Source of the DNA: Escherichia phage nataliec
DNA length: 64,000 nt
Reading direction: 5' to 3' (one strand)
Sequence record: MN850611.1
Positions 1,964-5,130 of this stretch are shown one piece after another (positions within the stretch are counted from its first letter, which is position 1; the number at the start of each line of letters is the position of its first letter). A model generated the notes under the pieces. That model was not told the DNA's origin, searched no databases, and was given only the letters and a program-made list of their open reading frames with translations. Both the position numbers and the translations under genes were made by a program.

Positions 1964-2166
1964 ATTTTGAGAGGGCTATTTAGCCCCTCCCTTAAAGAGT
2001 TCTTACGAGTATTCTTTAAAGGAGCAGAAGACCAAATTCAGCAAGTTACTTAAAATTTCAAGCCAATTTAATTTTGAAAAATTTAAAACTTGGTCTGGCT
2101 CAACAAATTTACAGAAGACCGTTTACAGCAAAACTTAAACAATCTATTTCTCGGTAAAGAAAAGGC

Positions 2167-2218
2167 GAAGGTTCGATTCCTTCACTCGGCAGATGTCGAG
2201 TTGGTGTAATGGTAGCAC
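2167..2218 (+). other. tRNA-like fragment: T-arm hairpin plus acceptor-like hairpin plus D-arm-like segment in permuted order (no complete cloverleaf)
   Basis: gaagg-ttcgatt-ccttc (2167-2183) followed by actcggc-agat-gtcgagt hairpin (2184-2201) and tggtgtaatggtagcac (2202-2218). Confidence 0.4.
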
Positions 2219-2243
2219 TTAAGATGATAAACAACGGTCTGGT

Positions 2244-2387
2244 AATTATCTTTGTAGATAAGTTATTAAGCTTACCTGTGAGTATGCGACCACAAAGGGT
2301 GAAAGGGTAAATTCTAGATTTAAACCCAAAAAGGCACATCGCTACAGACCTTAAGCAAGTCTGGGTAGCTTATCTACAAAGATAATT
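2244..2387 (+). repeat. 19-bp perfect inverted repeat (aattatctttgtagataag / cttatctacaaagataatt) enclosing a 106-nt unit
   Basis: arms at 2244-2262 and 2369-2387 are exact reverse complements. Confidence 0.7.
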
Positions 2388-2391
2388 TAAT

Positions 2392-2467
2392 GGAAGTGTA
2401 GCAGAATGGTGATGCGGCAGACTTTTAATCTGACAGGCGATGGGTTCGAATCCCTCCACTTCTACCA
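2392..2467 (+). tRNA. tRNA-Lys (TTT)
   Basis: acceptor ggaagtg/cacttct, anticodon loop cttttaa, T-loop ttcgaat, CCA. Confidence 0.75.
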
Positions 2468-2471
2468 ATAT

Positions 2472-2548
2472 GGTTCAGTCGCAGATAAGGTAATGCAAGG
2501 GTCTCATAAGCCCTATGAATGTGGGTTCGATTCCCATCTGAACCTCCA
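2472..2548 (+). tRNA. tRNA with CAT anticodon (second copy; Met/fMet or Ile2)
   Basis: acceptor ggttcag/ctgaacc, anticodon arm agggt-ctcataa-gccct, T-loop ttcgatt, CCA. Confidence 0.75.
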
Positions 2549-2549
2549 A

Positions 2550-2625
2550 GCTGGTATAGTTAAGAAGGTTATAACACTCCCCTGATAAGGGAACATCGGT
2601 GGTTCGATTCCACCTACCAGTACCA
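2550..2625 (+). tRNA. tRNA-Ile (GAT)
   Basis: acceptor gctggta/taccagt, anticodon loop ctgataa, T-arm ggtgg-ttcgatt-ccacc, CCA. Confidence 0.75.
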
Positions 2626-2640
2626 ATTTCAATAAAGTTG

Positions 2641-2669
2641 TTGACATTGAGATGTGACTACTTTATAGT
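2641..2669 (+). promoter_or_regulatory. sigma70-like promoter TTGACA-17-TATAGT inside tRNA cluster
   Basis: exact -35, 17-nt spacer, near-consensus -10. Confidence 0.5.
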
Positions 2670-2873
2670 AACCTTAGTTTTCGTTGCGTAGCGTCTATTT
2701 TGCAAATTTAAAATAAATGCAAACGACAATGTTTTTCTGGCAGTAGCTTGATAGGCTAAACACCAGTGAGGTCTTCCAATCCCTCATCAAAGAATTTGGC
2801 GTACTCGCCCACGGTATGATTAATAAGGTGGGCATCTTTAAGGGCTTTCTAAGAGAGTCTTTAAAGATAATTA

Positions 2874-2955
2874 CGGGGCGTATCTCAGCGGTCTTCTAAA
2901 CCGCCGTTAACCGAGTAAGTGGAGTATGCGGGTTCGAGTCCTGCCGCCTCGACCA
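2874..2955 (+). tRNA. non-canonical tRNA-like gene, best anticodon arm gives TCT (Arg); D-arm region only 7 nt, 23-nt extra region before T-arm
   Basis: acceptor cggggcg/cgcctcg, perfect anticodon arm gcggt-cttctaa-accgc, T-arm gcggg-ttcgagt-cctgc, CCA. Confidence 0.45.
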
Positions 2956-3098
2956 ATTTAGTTAGCAGATTACTTAGACGACCTAAGCGGGTCTTCCTGT
3001 AGGGAGGTGGTCTGTATCTCATGTTTTCCAGAACATGTAAATAATCTGAGAAGGGGCTTTACAGTGTTGAGATAATACGGTAAGCTTCGAATTATAGT

Positions 3099-3181
3099 AT
3101 GGGACGATGTTAAGACTCTAAGGCATGAGCAACGGCCTCCAAAACCGTTTCAAAGGGGTTCAACTCCTCCGTCCCATGCCA
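3099..3181 (+). tRNA. tRNA, probable Trp (CCA) with enlarged D region
   Basis: acceptor atgggac/gtcccat perfect, anticodon loop ctccaaa in 4-5 bp stem, T-loop ttcaact, CCA; 26 nt between acceptor and anticodon stem. Confidence 0.45.
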
Positions 3182-3194
3182 AAGTCTTATTAGG

Positions 3195-3282
3195 GGTAGG
3201 TAGCGGCTAATGGTAGCCAAACTGTCTTGAAAACAGTTGCCACTGTAGAGATACGGTGAGGGTTCGACTCCTTTACTTACCG
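3195..3282 (+). tRNA. tRNA-Ser (TGA), type II
   Basis: acceptor ggtaggt/acttacc, anticodon arm aactgt-cttgaaa-acagtt, long variable arm, T-loop ttcgact; CCA not encoded. Confidence 0.75.
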
Positions 3283-3438
3283 CCTAATAAGATTTAAAGC
3301 CAAGCTTCATTCGGATGTTGCTTTGGTATCCCTCGTGTATTGTCGTACACACTGATAAAACACCTAGTAGGTGTCACGGAGAAGAGATAATATCAAGCTC
3401 TCCAAAGGTTCTAGTCACCAGATTAAACAAGACTATGC

Positions 3439-3461
3439 AAAGACCTTTTTAGGTCTTTTTA
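3439..3461 (+). terminator. Rho-independent terminator-like hairpin (aaagacc-ttttt-aggtcttt + T run)
   Basis: 7-bp stem followed by TTTTT. Confidence 0.4.
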
Positions 3462-3539
3462 GAGGGCTTCTAAGGTTATTACAGCTTGTTGTGGAACCTT
3501 GTTGCTTAGGTTCTTAGAAGTTCTCTAAAAAGATTTAAT

Positions 3540-3617
3540 GGGAGATTGACGGTAATTGGTAAACCTATCTCGCTTAGAACGAGATGTTTGAGGGTTCGAA
3601 TCCCTTGTCTCCTACCA
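3540..3617 (+). tRNA. tRNA with Leu anticodon TAG but type I (short variable arm) architecture
   Basis: acceptor gggagat/gtctcct, 6-bp anticodon stem atctcg/cgagat with loop cttagaa, 5-nt variable loop, T-arm gaggg-ttcgaat-ccctt, A73, CCA. Confidence 0.65.
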
Positions 3618-3700: not shown

Positions 3701-3706
3701 AAAAAT

Positions 3707-3782
3707 GGGGTCATAGTTTATATGGTTAAAATTCGAGTTTTGCAAACTTGGGAACTGAGTTCAATTCTCAGTGACTCCACCA
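3707..3782 (+). tRNA. tRNA-Ala (TGC)
   Basis: acceptor ggggtca/tgactcc with G3-U70 pair, anticodon loop tttgcaa, T-arm ctgag-ttcaatt-ctcag, CCA. Confidence 0.8.
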
Positions 3783-3788
3783 ATTAGT

Positions 3789-3863
3789 GCATCCATAGTT
3801 TAAACGGGAAAATTACAGTCTTCCAAACTGAGGTTGAGGGTTCGATTCCCTCTGGATGCTCCA
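3789..3863 (+). tRNA. tRNA-Gly (TCC)
   Basis: acceptor gcatcca/tggatgc perfect, anticodon loop cttccaa, T-loop ttcgatt, CCA. Confidence 0.8.
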
Positions 3864-3869
3864 AATAAT

Positions 3870-3946
3870 GCTGCTTTCGTATAATTGGCTATTACACATC
3901 CCTTGTAAGGATGGAGATGCGGGTTCGAGTCCTGTGAGCAGCACCA
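3870..3946 (+). tRNA. tRNA-Thr (TGT)
   Basis: acceptor gctgctt/gagcagc, anticodon arm catcc-cttgtaa-ggatg, T-loop ttcgagt, CCA. Confidence 0.8.
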
Positions 3947-4041
3947 ATTCAGAGGTCAAGTGAAAGACCGCTGGTGTCAACTGAAGACCGTAACAAATTC
4001 CACGGAGTTGAGTTAGCGGCACAACTTCAGACCTCTTTCAC

Positions 4042-4116
4042 ACTCGCTTAGTTTATATGGTAAAACATCACCCTTACAAGATGAAGAAAAAGGTTCAAGT
4101 CCTTTAGTGAGTACCA
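4042..4116 (+). tRNA. tRNA-Val (TAC)
   Basis: acceptor actcgct/agtgagt, anticodon loop cttacaa, T-loop ttcaagt, CCA. Confidence 0.7.
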
Positions 4117-4117
4117 T

Positions 4118-4195
4118 GTTCCAGTATCCCAATTGGCAGAGGATGCAAGCTCAAACCTTGTATTAGTGACGGTTCGAATCCGTCTTGGAACACCA
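4118..4195 (+). tRNA. tRNA with Leu anticodon CAA, type I architecture
   Basis: acceptor gttccag/ttggaac, anticodon arm gcaag-ctcaaac-cttgt, 6-nt variable loop, T-arm gacgg-ttcgaat-ccgtc, A73, CCA. Confidence 0.65.
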
Positions 4196-4200
4196 ATTTT

Positions 4201-4276
4201 GCAGGATTAGTTCAAATGGATAGAGCAACAGTCTACGAAGCTGTTAATAGGGGTTCGAATCCCTTATCCTGCGCCA
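4201..4276 (+). tRNA. tRNA-Arg (ACG)
   Basis: acceptor gcaggat/atcctgc perfect, anticodon loop ctacgaa, T-loop ttcgaat, CCA. Confidence 0.8.
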
Positions 4277-4295
4277 ATTTAAAGAGGCTATTTAG

Positions 4296-4853
4296 ATGAG
4301 ATATTTGAAGTATGCTTCATGGATTTTCTTAGCTTTGTTAGAGCCATTTGCAGCAATCTTAGCAGTTATCTTAGCACCTTTTGTAGTTCCATTCTACAGT
4401 GAGAAGAAAGGACACTTACCTTTCGGGTTCAGATGGATGGAGACATATGACAACCCAATTGATGGTGATGAAGGTCACGTTAAAAGATGGGCTAATATTA
4501 GATGGATTGGTAAACTAGGTGTCTACATGCAAAGAGTCGGATGGCTCTGGAGAAACAAAGCTTATAACTTCTCTTACCATGTATTAGGAAGAGATGTAAA
4601 AGATGTTACTAAGTGGAAAGGTAATATCAACGTAAGTTCTGACCCTGAAGATAATCAGACAGGTTATCTCCTAATGTGGAACAGTAATGCTTGGGGATTA
4701 TTCGCTTTTATCCCATCAATTAAAATCTTTGGTAAAAAATTTTACTGGAGAATTTATATTGGATGGAAACTAAAAAGTGTTGTCCCAGAAGAAAGAGCAT
4801 TCTCAAGGGAAAGAGTTATGTTGGCATTCTTTATTCATCCACTGAGAAAGTAA
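4296..4853 (+). CDS. hypothetical membrane protein embedded in tRNA cluster
   Basis: 185-aa ORF; hydrophobic N-terminus (IFLALLEPFAAILAVILAPFVV). Confidence 0.5.
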   Translation: MRYLKYASWIFLALLEPFAAILAVILAPFVVPFYSEKKGHLPFGFRWMETYDNPIDGDEGHVKRWANIRWIGKLGVYMQRVGWLWRNKAYNFSYHVLGRDVKDVTKWKGNINVSSDPEDNQTGYLLMWNSNAWGLFAFIPSIKIFGKKFYWRIYIGWKLKSVVPEERAFSRERVMLAFFIHPLRK

Positions 4854-4861
4854 AGATTTAA

Positions 4862-4937
4862 AGGGGATTAGTTTACAAGGTTAAAACCTCGGTCTTTGAA
4901 ATCGAAGAAGTTGGTTCAATTCCAACATCCCCCGCCA
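4862..4937 (+). tRNA. tRNA-Gln (TTG)
   Basis: anticodon arm tcggt-ctttgaa-atcga, T-arm gttgg-ttcaatt-ccaac, acceptor (a)ggggat/atccccc with 1:72 mismatch, CCA. Confidence 0.65.
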
Positions 4938-4939
4938 AT

Positions 4940-5018
4940 GCTCCATTACTCCAATTGGCAGAGAGGCCAGACTTAAAATCTGTGTTATGTATCGGTTCGA
5001 ATCCGATATGGAGTACCA
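4940..5018 (+). tRNA. tRNA with Leu anticodon TAA, type I architecture
   Basis: acceptor gctccat/atggagt, anticodon arm ccaga-cttaaaa-tctgt, 7-nt variable loop, T-arm atcgg-ttcgaat-ccgat, A73, CCA. Confidence 0.65.
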
Positions 5019-5023
5019 AATTT

Positions 5024-5099
5024 AGCGGTATAGCATAACTGGCAATGCAGCAGTCTCTGAAGCTGTCTTATTAAGGTTCAAATCCTTATGCCGCTGCCA
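5024..5099 (+). tRNA. tRNA-Gln (CTG)
   Basis: acceptor agcggta/tgccgct, anticodon arm gcagt-ctctgaa-gctgt, T-loop ttcaaat, CCA. Confidence 0.7.
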
Positions 5100-5130
5100 C
5101 TTCTAAGGATTCTTACGAGAGTCCTTAAAT

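What the first reader, a model, noticed from the sequence alone, without database searches (positions are those of the whole stretch)
1970..5130. Recurrent 'TTCTTACGAG'-containing stem-loops and 'CTTCTAAG' boxes in tRNA spacers
The spacers at 1989-2020 (ccttaaagagttcttacgagtattctttaaagg) and 5101-5130 (aaggattcttacgagagtcctt) share the core ttcttacgag flanked by inverted arms. Related cttctaag/cttagaag boxes occur at 2841-2860 and 3461-3530. They sit between tRNA genes and may be RNase processing hairpins or small stable RNAs.
Basis: seen in the sequence. Interest (0 to 1): 0.35.

Follow-up and report, generated by a model that had tools for sequence, protein, structure and literature searches.

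The report
Conserved phage RNA spacer hairpins
The repeated 'TTCTTACGAG' stem-loops are real, conserved RNA hairpins that mark boundaries between tRNAs and small RNAs in a FelixO1-like phage; the same hairpin occurs in T5-like and phiEco32-like phages, most likely to define and protect RNA ends, though its function has not been tested.

Summary
The window is a FelixO1-like phage (Felixounavirus), and the finding lies in its tRNA cluster. Hairpins A (1987-2024) and B (5097-5134) share TTCTTACGAG at their tips, with the apex CU[UACG]AG. The "box" at 2841-2860 is a third member of the same family, hairpin C (2833-2870). It sits directly 5' of a tRNA-Arg(UCU) that ARAGORN missed. The boxes at 3461-3530 are the two arms of a separate 90-nt hairpin, D.

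The family is an RNA structure on the transcribed strand. G.U pairs make it strand-specific, and pairing covaries: 89.8% of cells are paired and 12 of 17 pairs show changes on both sides. It is fixed in position in all related genomes sampled.

The same hairpin occurs in Erwinia Kolesnikvirus, in Kuravirus (22 of 22 nt identical to B) and in T5-like phages. In T5 it forms the 3' end of the annotated "stable RNA X" and abuts tRNA-Arg(UCU). Five weaker copies lie on the minus strand at 33.8-35.4 kb.

Best reading: these are RNA-end-defining "punctuation" hairpins, acting as an RNase P-generated 3' cap and possibly as an RNase III site. The nuclease involved is inferred, not shown. No Rfam family matches. 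Interest is moderate.

The parts
1969..1989 (+). hp0: short G+C-rich hairpin (GGGCU-AUUU-AGCCC core) directly after tRNA-Asp and directly before hairpin A
   Evidence: Fold. Conserved in all relatives. A similar 'GC hairpin followed by a family hairpin' arrangement is seen in contig L015 and at 34145-34091 on the minus strand.
1987..2024 (+). Hairpin A: UUAAAGAGUUCU[UACG]AGUAUUCUUUAA with a CUCC/GGAG base. It abuts the third Y-like RNA, which starts at 2022.
   Evidence: 48.6 bits; A was in the training set. 24 of 24 related loci keep it, with A-U / G.U / G-C variants at one pair and UACG/UGCG loops.
2641..2669 (+). Sigma-70-like promoter (TTGACA-17-TATAGT) that starts the transcript ending in hairpin C and tRNA-Arg
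   Evidence: 11 of 12 matches, the best in the region. T5 has promoter P16-17 in the equivalent place before RNAX.
2675..2832 (+). Conserved structured leader RNA upstream of hairpin C (an 'RNAX-like' leader)
   Evidence: Alignment with Erwinia phage and other Ounavirinae: 40 predicted pairs, 4 of them with compensatory double changes.
2833..2870 (+).
   Evidence: 28 bits. Erwinia phage has GGTTCTTACGAGAGTC at this position. The hairpin-plus-tRNA block aligns to the T5 RNAX 3' hairpin plus tRNA-Arg.
2874..2952 (+). tRNA-Arg(UCU), missed by ARAGORN
   Evidence: Rfam tRNA hit at 31.7 bits, above the gathering score of 29. Annotated as tRNA-Arg TCT in relatives.
3440..3460 (+). Terminator-like hairpin AAGACCU-UUUU-AGGUCUU followed by UUUU. 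It overlaps the 5' base of hairpin D.
   Evidence: Sequence. Its loop varies freely among relatives while the stem is kept.
3449..3538 (+). Hairpin D: long hairpin whose arms carry CTTCTAAG / CTTAGAAG, ending 1 nt before tRNA-Leu(UAG). It is a separate, larger element.
   Evidence: -40.2 kcal/mol on +, -27.6 on -. The SUSP2-type allele keeps every pair through changes such as U-A to G-C and C-G to U.G. Model R1 does not detect it.
5097..5134 (+). Hairpin B: UAAGGAUUCU[UACG]AGAGUCCUUA (5104-5127) with an outer CAC/GUG, filling the tRNA-Gln(CUG)-tRNA-His spacer
   Evidence: 52.4 bits; B was in the training set. 33 of 33 related loci keep it. Variants are A-U/G.U in the stem, UACG/UGCG in the loop, and one allele that closes the internal loop to an 18-bp stem.
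35361..35399 (-). Related hairpin CAUCACUUAAGGGUCUUCUAAGAGGGUUUUUAAGUGAUG (19 bp, contains CTTCTAAG), about 25 nt downstream of a strong promoter
   Evidence: 24 bits, not in training set; -19.3 kcal/mol on the - strand, -9.7 on +.
35223..35262 (-). Related hairpin in the 5' leader of ORF 35202-34600
   Evidence: (20.9 bits).
34091..34129 (-). Related hairpin whose 5' arm is the U tract of intrinsic terminator 34145-34130
   Evidence: (29.4 bits).
33958..33996 (-). Related hairpin heading a ~135-nt non-coding repeat unit
   Evidence: (29.1 bits).
33821..33859 (-). Related hairpin heading a ~135-nt non-coding repeat unit
   Evidence: (25.7 bits).

Best explanation
A, B and C are copies of one family of RNA hairpins formed on the transcribed strand. 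Each has a 10-19 bp A/U- and G.U-rich stem and usually a UACG tetraloop. They act as 'punctuation' in long multi-gene transcripts. Each sits at the 3' edge of an upstream RNA (a tRNA, a leader-derived stable RNA or, in other phages, an mRNA) and 4-10 nt before the next tRNA or small RNA. Proposed mechanism: the transcript is cut next to the hairpin, by RNase P at the 5' end of the following tRNA and possibly also by RNase III within the stem. The hairpin then remains as a 3'-terminal cap that slows 3'-to-5' exonucleases. It also keeps neighbouring structured RNAs from mispairing. For C, this would create and stabilise a ~200-nt leader RNA (about 2672-2873), the counterpart of the phage T5 'stable RNA X'. 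Shown here: the hairpins exist, are strand-specific, covary, are fixed in position, and are homologous to the 3' end of T5 RNAX. Inferred: the nucleases involved and the stabilising effect.
For: All three fold far better than shuffled sequence, and C, D and the minus-strand copies fold about twice as well on the transcribed strand. Across 21 instances, 89.8% of cells are paired, against 74% in shuffles and at most 57% when partners are slid. Twelve of 17 pairs change on both sides. Within Ounavirinae one pair of A is found as A-U, G.U and G-C, and B as A-U or G.U. Position is invariant: 33 of 33 loci for B and 24 of 24 for A. Erwinia phage FIfi106 carries GGTTCTTACGAGAGTC at the C position. 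T5-like phages carry the hairpin as the last ~45 nt of misc_RNA 'RNAX, stable RNA with unknown functions', which ends exactly where tRNA-Arg(UCU) begins, and the hairpin-plus-tRNA block aligns to window 2834-2960. When an ORF is inserted (bobsandoy, Sugarland, phiR2-01), the hairpin stays with the upstream RNA rather than with the tRNA. At the same site FelixO1 and SUSP2 carry a different stable hairpin, so the site needs a hairpin but not one particular sequence. In Kuravirus and contigs L123 and L170 the hairpin starts within a few nt of an upstream stop codon, and in L015 it follows a terminator. The RNA upstream of C is itself a conserved, covarying structure.
Against: No RNA ends were measured; everything rests on sequence. 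A/U- and G.U-rich stems are weak exonuclease barriers compared with G+C-rich ones, so pure 'capping' does not explain why the stem sequence (UUCU...AGAG, UUAAG...CUUAA) is kept across unrelated phage families. For B the upstream RNA is a tRNA, whose 3' maturation a trailing hairpin would hinder rather than help. The metagenomic instances in the covariation set (L123, L155, L170) were chosen partly because they pair, which inflates the counts somewhat. A, B and C were in the training set of model R1.
Confidence: 0.5

Rival explanations
1. The hairpins are genuine RNase III substrates. Host RNase III cuts both strands of the 16-19 bp helix and thereby separates upstream and downstream RNAs, as at the T7 early-region sites. 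This overlaps with the best explanation but makes RNase III, not RNase P, the key enzyme.
For: Uninterrupted helices of 16-19 bp are seen in C, in T5, in the HY02 allele of B and in the minus-strand copies. The A/U- and G.U-rich composition fits the known avoidance of certain G-C pairs in E. coli RNase III sites (own knowledge of Nicholson-lab work, not tested here). The intercistronic location resembles T7 sites. From memory, RNase III cleavage in the leader of the T4 tRNA cluster has been reported (Pragai and Apirion 1981); this was not checked.
Against: A and B in this window have only 9-10 continuous bp. Model R1 gives no significant score on the five T7 early RNase III sites (best 10.8 bits, E 0.87). 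Those sites are G+C-rich with an internal loop, which this family lacks.
Confidence: 0.2
2. The hairpin is a sequence-specific binding site (operator) for a protein, either a conserved enterobacterial host factor or a phage protein, which controls translation, stability or transcription of flanking RNAs.
For: The apical stem and arms are conserved in sequence, not only in pairing, across Ounavirinae, Demerecviridae, Kuravirus and metagenomic contigs: UUCU[UACG]AGAG and UUAAG/CUUAA, with 22 of 22 nt identical between B and Kuravirus. In several phages it lies 17-45 nt before a start codon.
Against: These phage families share no obvious common regulator. The element is absent from 5,426 E. coli genomes, so it does not copy a host operator. 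FelixO1 and SUSP2 replace C by an unrelated hairpin. The apparent apex invariance partly reflects how the instances were found, by exact-word searches.
Confidence: 0.12
3. It is a DNA-level mobile or recombination cassette, a short conserved module boundary spread among co-infecting phages in the manner of PeSL elements of T4-type phages, and the hairpin is incidental.
For: Near-identical copies occur in unrelated phages of the same hosts. ORF insertions and allele swaps occur right beside it. The hairpin-plus-tRNA-Arg(UCU) block is shared by T5 and FelixO1-like phages.
Against: G.U pairs and one-strand-only folding point to selection on RNA, as do the compensatory changes. PeSLs are composite terminator-plus-promoter units (PMC4122927), and no promoter accompanies A or B.
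Confidence: 0.08
4. The UACG-tipped hairpins mimic the anticodon arm of tRNA-Arg(ACG) and are edited by, or titrate, host TadA (A-to-I at A2005 and A5115).
For: TadA needs UACG, and best YUACGAA, in a stem-loop (PMC12255301). A and B carry UUACGAG, a 6 of 7 match. The only natural loop polymorphism in Ounavirinae is A to G at exactly that A (UACG to UGCG). The family is linked to tRNA-Arg genes.
Against: The predicted loop is 4 nt, not 7. Other members have CACG, UGAG or UAA loops, and the minus-strand copies have none of these motifs. UACG and UGCG are both simply stable UNCG tetraloops, which this phage also uses in ordinary terminators (UUCG at 34145-34130, UACG at 63128-63146).
Confidence: 0.04
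5. They are intrinsic transcription terminators or attenuators.
For: They are stable hairpins with UNCG loops. Some copies directly follow or overlap real terminator hairpins (34145-34091 on the minus strand; L015).
Against: There is no U tract after A, B or C, and the stems are A/U-rich. None is called by the terminator scan. tRNAs follow within 4-10 nt and must be co-transcribed. T5 annotates none at this site.
Confidence: 0.03

Closest known systems
3'-terminal hairpin of phage T5 'RNAX' (misc_RNA T5s08, NC_005859 40848-41566)
   Same: It has the same sequence and structure family (55 bits with R1) and the same position directly 5' of tRNA-Arg(UCU), downstream of a sigma-70 promoter and an untranslated structured leader. 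The hairpin-plus-tRNA block aligns with window 2834-2960.
   Different: The T5 leader is 719 nt and unrelated in sequence to the ~160-nt FelixO1-type leader. T5 has one copy in its tRNA region, whereas this phage has three strong copies plus five weaker ones. The function of RNAX is itself unknown.
RNase III processing sites of phage T7 early mRNAs (R0.3-R1.3)
   Same: Both are intercistronic hairpins in phage polycistronic transcripts. After cutting, a hairpin is left at the 3' end of the upstream RNA and stabilises it (established knowledge).
   Different: T7 sites are about 50-60 nt with a G+C-rich upper stem and a conserved internal loop. There is no significant similarity to the family model. 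Cleavage of the present hairpins is untested.
UNCG-tetraloop hairpins and intercistronic stabiliser stem-loops (for example REP elements of E. coli)
   Same: Both are compact stable stem-loops between cistrons. A and B have UACG/UGCG loops. The expected action is as a 3' exonuclease barrier.
   Different: The closing pair is U-A, not the canonical C-G. The stems are A/U- and G.U-rich. No copy is found in E. coli genomes. Other family members lack a UNCG loop.
PeSL promoter-terminator cassettes of T4-type phages (PMC2839356, PMC4122927)
   Same: Both are short conserved intergenic stem-loop modules, repeated within a genome and associated with gene insertions and swaps.
   Different: PeSLs pair a terminator stem-loop with an early promoter and are thought to act through DNA recombination. 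The present hairpins lack an attached promoter and show RNA-level constraints.
TadA editing sites (tRNA-Arg2 anticodon loop and mRNA mimics, PMC12255301)
   Same: A UACG motif sits at the tip of a stem-loop, with 6 of 7 positions of YUACGAA matched.
   Different: The predicted loop has four nucleotides, not seven, and the motif is not kept across the family.

Membership tests
T5 RNAX-type 3' hairpin family (defined here by alignment A1 / model R1) | Sequence-plus-structure match to the ~38-nt hairpin consensus guauuUuuAAGgaUUCU-UACG-AGAGucCUUaaAaauac | tested here: met
   B scores 52.4 bits, A 48.6 and C 28.0, but all three were in the training set. T5 scores 55.4, Kuravirus 47.8 and Erwinia phage 45.1, and these were also in the training set. 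Independent minus-strand copies score 20.9-29.4 bits (E 3e-5 to 9e-3, rough).
T5 RNAX-type 3' hairpin family | Located at the 3' end of an untranslated RNA and immediately 5' of a tRNA (tRNA-Arg UCU in T5) | tested here: met
   C lies 5 nt before tRNA-Arg(UCU), B 3-4 nt before tRNA-His, and the Erwinia copy 10 nt before tRNA-Leu. A precedes a non-tRNA structured RNA instead.
RNA secondary-structure element (as opposed to a DNA repeat) | Pairing maintained by compensatory and wobble changes; fold specific to the transcribed strand | tested here: met
Intrinsic (Rho-independent) terminator | G+C-rich stem followed by a U tract | tested here: not met
   A, B and C are not listed by the terminator scan and have no U run after the stem.
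E. coli RNase III substrate | About two turns of dsRNA (roughly 20 bp) without inhibitory base pairs, and cleavage by RNase III | tested here: inconclusive
   Helix length is 9-10 bp in A and B, 16 bp in C and 19 bp in the minus-strand copies. There is no similarity to T7 sites. Cleavage cannot be tested with these tools.
TadA editing site | YUACGAA presented as the 7-nt loop of a stem-loop | tested here: not met
   The motif is UUACGAG (6 of 7) and the predicted loop is UACG (4 nt). The motif is absent in C, in TrudiGerster, in Sugarland and in the minus-strand copies.
TadA editing site | A-to-I conversion in RNA | not testable with these tools
   This needs RNA-seq or cDNA sequencing of infected cells.
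Canonical UNCG tetraloop hairpin | UNCG loop closed by a C-G pair | tested here: inconclusive
   The loops are UACG or UGCG in A and B, but the closing pair is U-A.
PeSL (promoter-early stem-loop) cassette | Stem-loop joined to a sigma-70-type early promoter | tested here: not met
   There is no promoter-like site next to A or B. C lies 165 nt downstream of a promoter rather than being fused to one.
Any Rfam family / tRNA | Covariance-model match at the hairpin coordinates | tested here: not met
   cmscan at E up to 1 finds only a chance-level miRNA hit over B (E 0.15) and MIR473 over D (below its gathering score). ARAGORN finds nothing.
Host (E. coli) repeat such as REP | Copies in E. coli chromosomes | tested here: not met
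   No match in 5,426 complete E. coli genomes at E up to 10.

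The most novel reading that the evidence does not exclude
The UACG-tipped hairpins (A2005, A5115) are mimics of the tRNA-Arg(ACG) anticodon arm that are deaminated by, or soak up, the host tRNA adenosine deaminase TadA during infection. They would thereby couple phage tRNA/small-RNA expression to A-to-I editing. The natural UACG/UGCG polymorphism would be the 'hard-wired' edited state. A broader version of this reading is that the hairpin is a new, horizontally spread RNA motif read by one conserved enterobacterial factor in at least three unrelated virulent phage families.
Probability: 0.05. Interest if true: 0.75.

Novelty: new variant of a known kind. Interest (0 to 1): 0.4.

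Why it matters
Phage tRNA clusters are usually annotated as bare tRNA lists. Here the spacers carry a conserved RNA module that is shared, almost base for base, by FelixO1-like, T5-like and phiEco32-like phages. That module gives the first comparative handle on the long-unexplained T5 'stable RNA X'. If the hairpin defines and protects RNA ends, it explains how stable leader RNAs and correctly separated tRNAs arise from one long transcript. It would also offer a compact, portable RNA-stability or processing element for phage engineering. If a specific host factor reads it, it would be a new point of phage-host RNA interplay.

Tried and rejected
(1) Chance: rejected. The exact 10-mer is rare in the window, both + copies sit at hairpin tips, and they are conserved in every relative.

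(2) Terminators: rejected, because there is no U tract.

(3) A known RNA family: none found in Rfam at E up to 1, in the window or in the T5-like and Kuravirus loci.

(4) A host copy: none in E. coli genomes.

(5) Homology of the FelixO1-type leader (2675-2832) to T5 RNAX beyond the hairpin and the tRNA: not found.

(6) Similarity to T7 RNase III sites: not significant.

(7) Mimicry of the sarcin-ricin loop ('UACGAGAG'): dropped. The alternative C[GAGA]G fold gives no stem, and ACG is not kept across the family.

(8) 'CTTCTAAG' as a conserved box: rejected. It is replaced in the SUSP2-type allele of D with pairing kept.

(9) Exact-word scans of IMG/VR returned mostly chance hits in coding sequence. 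Only hits that are intergenic and have extended stems were kept. L078 and L009 were discarded because they lie in coding sequence.

(10) Literature: searches for T5 RNAX or for transcriptome and processing data on T5-like or FelixO1-like phages found nothing usable.

(11) Homology of the T5 stable RNAs I, III, 1, 2, 2H, IV and 3 to the Y-like repeats in this window: none, as they lack the CAGAAGACC/GGTCTGG motifs.

Full report
**Context**

The window is about 97% identical to FelixO1-like phages (Felixounavirus) over 1300-6300. The finding lies in their tRNA cluster. ARAGORN finds 24 tRNAs. Rfam adds tRNA-Glu at 1321-1392 and tRNA-Arg(UCU) at 2874-2952, and both are annotated in relatives. All tRNAs are on the + strand. 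The best promoter-like sites are at 722, 813 and 2641.

**Observation**

- TTCTTACGAG lies at 2000-2009 and 5110-5119. The only other exact copy in 64 kb, at 16048 on the minus strand, is in coding sequence and has no hairpin.
- Both + copies form the tip of stem-loops with the identical apex CU[UACG]AG. A is 1987-2024 and B is 5097-5134, with its core at 5104-5127. Both fold far better than shuffled controls.
- The 'box' at 2841-2860 actually reads CTTTCTAAG. It is the tip of a perfect 16-bp hairpin, C (2834-2868), at -20.3 kcal/mol on the + strand against -6.3 on the - strand.
- CTTCTAAG and CTTAGAAG at 3461-3530 are the two arms of one 90-nt hairpin, D (3449-3538), at -40.2 against -27.6 kcal/mol.

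**A, B and C are one family**

- In Erwinia phage FIfi106, of another genus (Kolesnikvirus), the position of C holds AAAGGTTCTTACGAGAGTCTTT. This is the B-type sequence.
- A 21-sequence alignment (A1) gives the consensus guauuUuuAAGgaUUCU-UACG-AGAGucCUUaaAaauac.
- On the 17-bp structure, 89.8% of cells pair. Shuffles give 74%, and sliding the partners gives 41-57%. Twelve pairs change on both sides.
- Caveat: three metagenomic members were picked partly because they pair.
- Within Ounavirinae alone, one pair of A occurs as A-U, G.U and G-C, and one pair of B as A-U or G.U. The loop is UACG or UGCG. One allele (HY02-like) closes B's internal loop into an 18-bp stem.
- Position is invariant in all loci examined: 33 for B and 24 for A.

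**The family is not confined to FelixO1-like phages**

- A 31-nt B query finds a perfect 22-nt match (AAGGATTCTTACGAGAGTCCTT) in phiEco32-like Kuraviruses. There it starts a few nt after a stop codon in a long intergenic region.
- A T5-type query finds 736 phage records.
- In T5 itself the hairpin is GUAUUUUUAAGAGUUUU-UACG-AGAGUUCUUAAAAAUAC, 17 bp. It is the last ~45 nt of the annotated misc_RNA 'RNAX, stable RNA with unknown functions'. RNAX starts at promoter P16-17 and ends exactly where tRNA-Arg(UCU) begins.
- This is the same arrangement as in the window: promoter 2641-2669, then an untranslated leader, then hairpin C, then 5 nt, then tRNA-Arg(UCU). The hairpin-plus-tRNA blocks align.
- In T5-like phages with an ORF inserted at this site (bobsandoy, Sugarland, phiR2-01), the hairpin stays with the upstream RNA.
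- Intergenic copies with covarying lower stems also occur in metagenomic viral contigs. L015 is one, right after a capsid-gene terminator, and L123, L155 and L170 are others.
- No copy is found in 5,426 E. coli genomes, and no Rfam family matches.

**More copies in the window**

Model R1, run without filters over all 64 kb, recovers B, A and C. It also finds five hairpins that were not in the training set, all on the minus strand at 33821-35399 (20.9-29.4 bits).

- That region is transcribed leftwards, from promoters at 35457 and 33709 with a terminator at 34145-34130.
- These copies form 16-19 bp helices rich in G.U pairs and fold about twice as well on the transcribed strand.
- One of them (35361-35399) contains CTTCTAAG and closely resembles C.
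- The + strand hit at 63120-63153 is an ordinary terminator with a C(UACG)G loop. It shows that this phage uses UNCG loops generally.

**Hairpin D**

D is not detected by R1. It is conserved, and its SUSP2-type allele keeps all pairs through changes such as U-A to G-C. The CTTCTAAG 'box' is therefore incidental to a structural stem. D overlaps a terminator-like hairpin (3440-3460) and ends 1 nt before tRNA-Leu(UAG). Its arms resemble an expanded C, but this relationship is only suggestive.

**Mechanism**

Three things are shown: the element is an RNA structure under selection, its placement is fixed, and it is homologous to the 3' end of a T5 stable RNA.

In every context the hairpin sits at the 3' edge of an upstream functional RNA and shortly before the next one. 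The upstream RNA is a tRNA, a leader RNA or an ORF. At the C site, FelixO1 and SUSP2 carry an unrelated stable hairpin, so the site needs a hairpin rather than one particular sequence. The ~160-nt RNA upstream of C is itself conserved and covaries between FelixO1-like and Erwinia phages.

The most economical reading is an end-defining punctuation hairpin. RNase P cleavage at the next tRNA leaves it as the 3' cap of the upstream RNA, and the 16-19 bp versions may also be RNase III substrates. The nuclease identities and the stabilising effect are inferences.

Capping alone does not explain the cross-family conservation of the stem sequence. A sequence-specific reader therefore remains possible.

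**Rivals**

- T7-type RNase III sites show no similarity to the family.
- The TadA reading has two points in its favour. UACG is the TadA core motif (PMC12255301), and the only loop polymorphism in Ounavirinae is A to G at the would-be target. It is weakened by the 4-nt loop and by CACG, UGAG and UAA loops elsewhere in the family.
- The terminator, host-repeat and PeSL readings each fail a defining feature (PMC4122927).

**Novelty and interest**

What is new is the following:

- Three of the four elements form one family.
- That family recurs almost unchanged in three unrelated groups of virulent enterobacterial phages.
- It is tied to the T5 'RNAX', whose function is unexplained.

It is not in Rfam, and I found no description of it in the searchable literature. 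I rate it a new variant of a known kind, of moderate interest.

**Side finding: a Ro60-like protein with Y-like RNAs**

- The ORF ending at 703 belongs to a DUF2828/DUF7788 protein family. An AlphaFold model of a homologue (pLDDT 83) matches, over its full length, only Ro60/Rsr structures.
- Four RNAs inside the tRNA cluster share an invariant bulged basal helix with covarying outer pairs and hypervariable middles. They lie at 1398-1482, 1566-1642, 2022-2104 and 2106-2250.
- The fourth encloses a circularly permuted tRNA-like domain whose closed acceptor stem covaries. This is the YrlA architecture (PMC4201824).
- The Erwinia phage lacks both the protein and these RNAs but keeps the hairpin. 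The hairpin family is therefore independent of this putative Ro60/Y-RNA system, even though hairpin A abuts one of its RNAs.

Noticed in passing
window 1-703 (+) and 1398-1482, 1566-1642, 2022-2104, 2106-2250 (+): The ORF upstream of the tRNA cluster (DUF2828 + DUF7788; 'RNA-binding protein' in RefSeq) has a predicted Ro60/TROVE + vWA fold. The top 10 PDB matches are all Ro60/Rsr, at E about 1e-7 and TM 0.5-0.65. Four downstream RNAs share the basal module N4-AGA-AGACC...GGUCU-G-N4' followed by U(U/A)CAGCAA. Their outer stems covary and their middles are hypervariable. The fourth holds a permuted tRNA-like domain (T arm, closed acceptor, D arm) like bacterial YrlA. This looks like an undescribed, divergent phage Ro60/Y-RNA system. 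Rfam finds no YrlA hit here.
   Followed up: partly
window 35460-33700 (- strand): A non-coding stretch downstream of strong promoters contains ~135-nt repeat units. Each unit has a family hairpin, about 80 nt of G/U-rich, C-poor sequence made of GGUNUGG-type repeats (ggtctgg, ggtatgg, ggtttgg), and a small hairpin. GGUCUGG is also the invariant 3' arm motif of the Y-like RNAs, so these tracts could be further binding sites or sponges for the same protein.
   Followed up: partly
window 2675-2832 (+): A conserved ~160-nt structured leader RNA lies between promoter 2641-2669 and hairpin C. Helices covary between FelixO1-like and Erwinia phages (UGAGG/CCUCA against UAGGG/CCCUA; GCCCAC/GUGGGC against UCCCGU/ACGGGG). 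Loops UCUUCCRAYY and UAUGAUUA are conserved. Rfam gives only sub-threshold tmRNA-like hits here.
   Followed up: partly
window 2250-2388 (+): A long (~135-nt) hairpin-based structured RNA lies between the fourth Y-like RNA and tRNA-Lys(UUU). Its basal stem covaries in Mooglevirus and SUSP2 (UCUUUGUAGAUAAG...CUUAUCUACAAAGA against CCUUUGCAGUGAC...GUUACUGCAAAGA).
   Followed up: no
window 963-1319 (+): An HNH-type ORF (CX2C...HH motifs) is inserted between tRNA-Pro and tRNA-Glu. FelixO1 and VpaE1 have these two tRNAs only 7 nt apart, and FelixO1 instead carries HNH genes at three other spacers. Homing-endonuclease traffic in the cluster is therefore variable.
   Followed up: no
window 1321-1392, 2874-2952, 3101-3175 (+): ARAGORN misses tRNA-Glu(UUC) and tRNA-Arg(UCU), both above the Rfam threshold. 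An atypical tRNA-like sequence with anticodon loop CUCCAAA (Trp) and an odd D region is matched only weakly by Rfam (tRNA-Sec model, E 0.5).
   Followed up: partly
window 2953-3100 and 3947-4041 (+): Further conserved non-tRNA spacers are present. GGAGGUGGUCUGUAUCUC... is shared with the Erwinia phage spacer L007 6208-6337. A ~90-nt hairpin CAGAGGUC...GACCUCUU between tRNA-Thr and tRNA-Val is conserved in SUSP2.
   Followed up: no
L128 (Kuravirus NJ01) 2493-2545: In Kuravirus the outer stem CUAUC/GAUAG of the family hairpin overlaps the 5' arm of the next hairpin (GAUAGGA...UCCUAUC). The two structures are therefore mutually exclusive, which could be a switch.
   Followed up: no
L250 (phage T5 26000-43000): The T5 tRNA region carries eight annotated 'stable RNAs of unknown function' (RNAI, III, IV, 1, 2, 2H, 3, X), two of them tRNA-like. 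None has the CAGAAGACC/GGUCUGG module of the FelixO1-type RNAs.
   Followed up: partly
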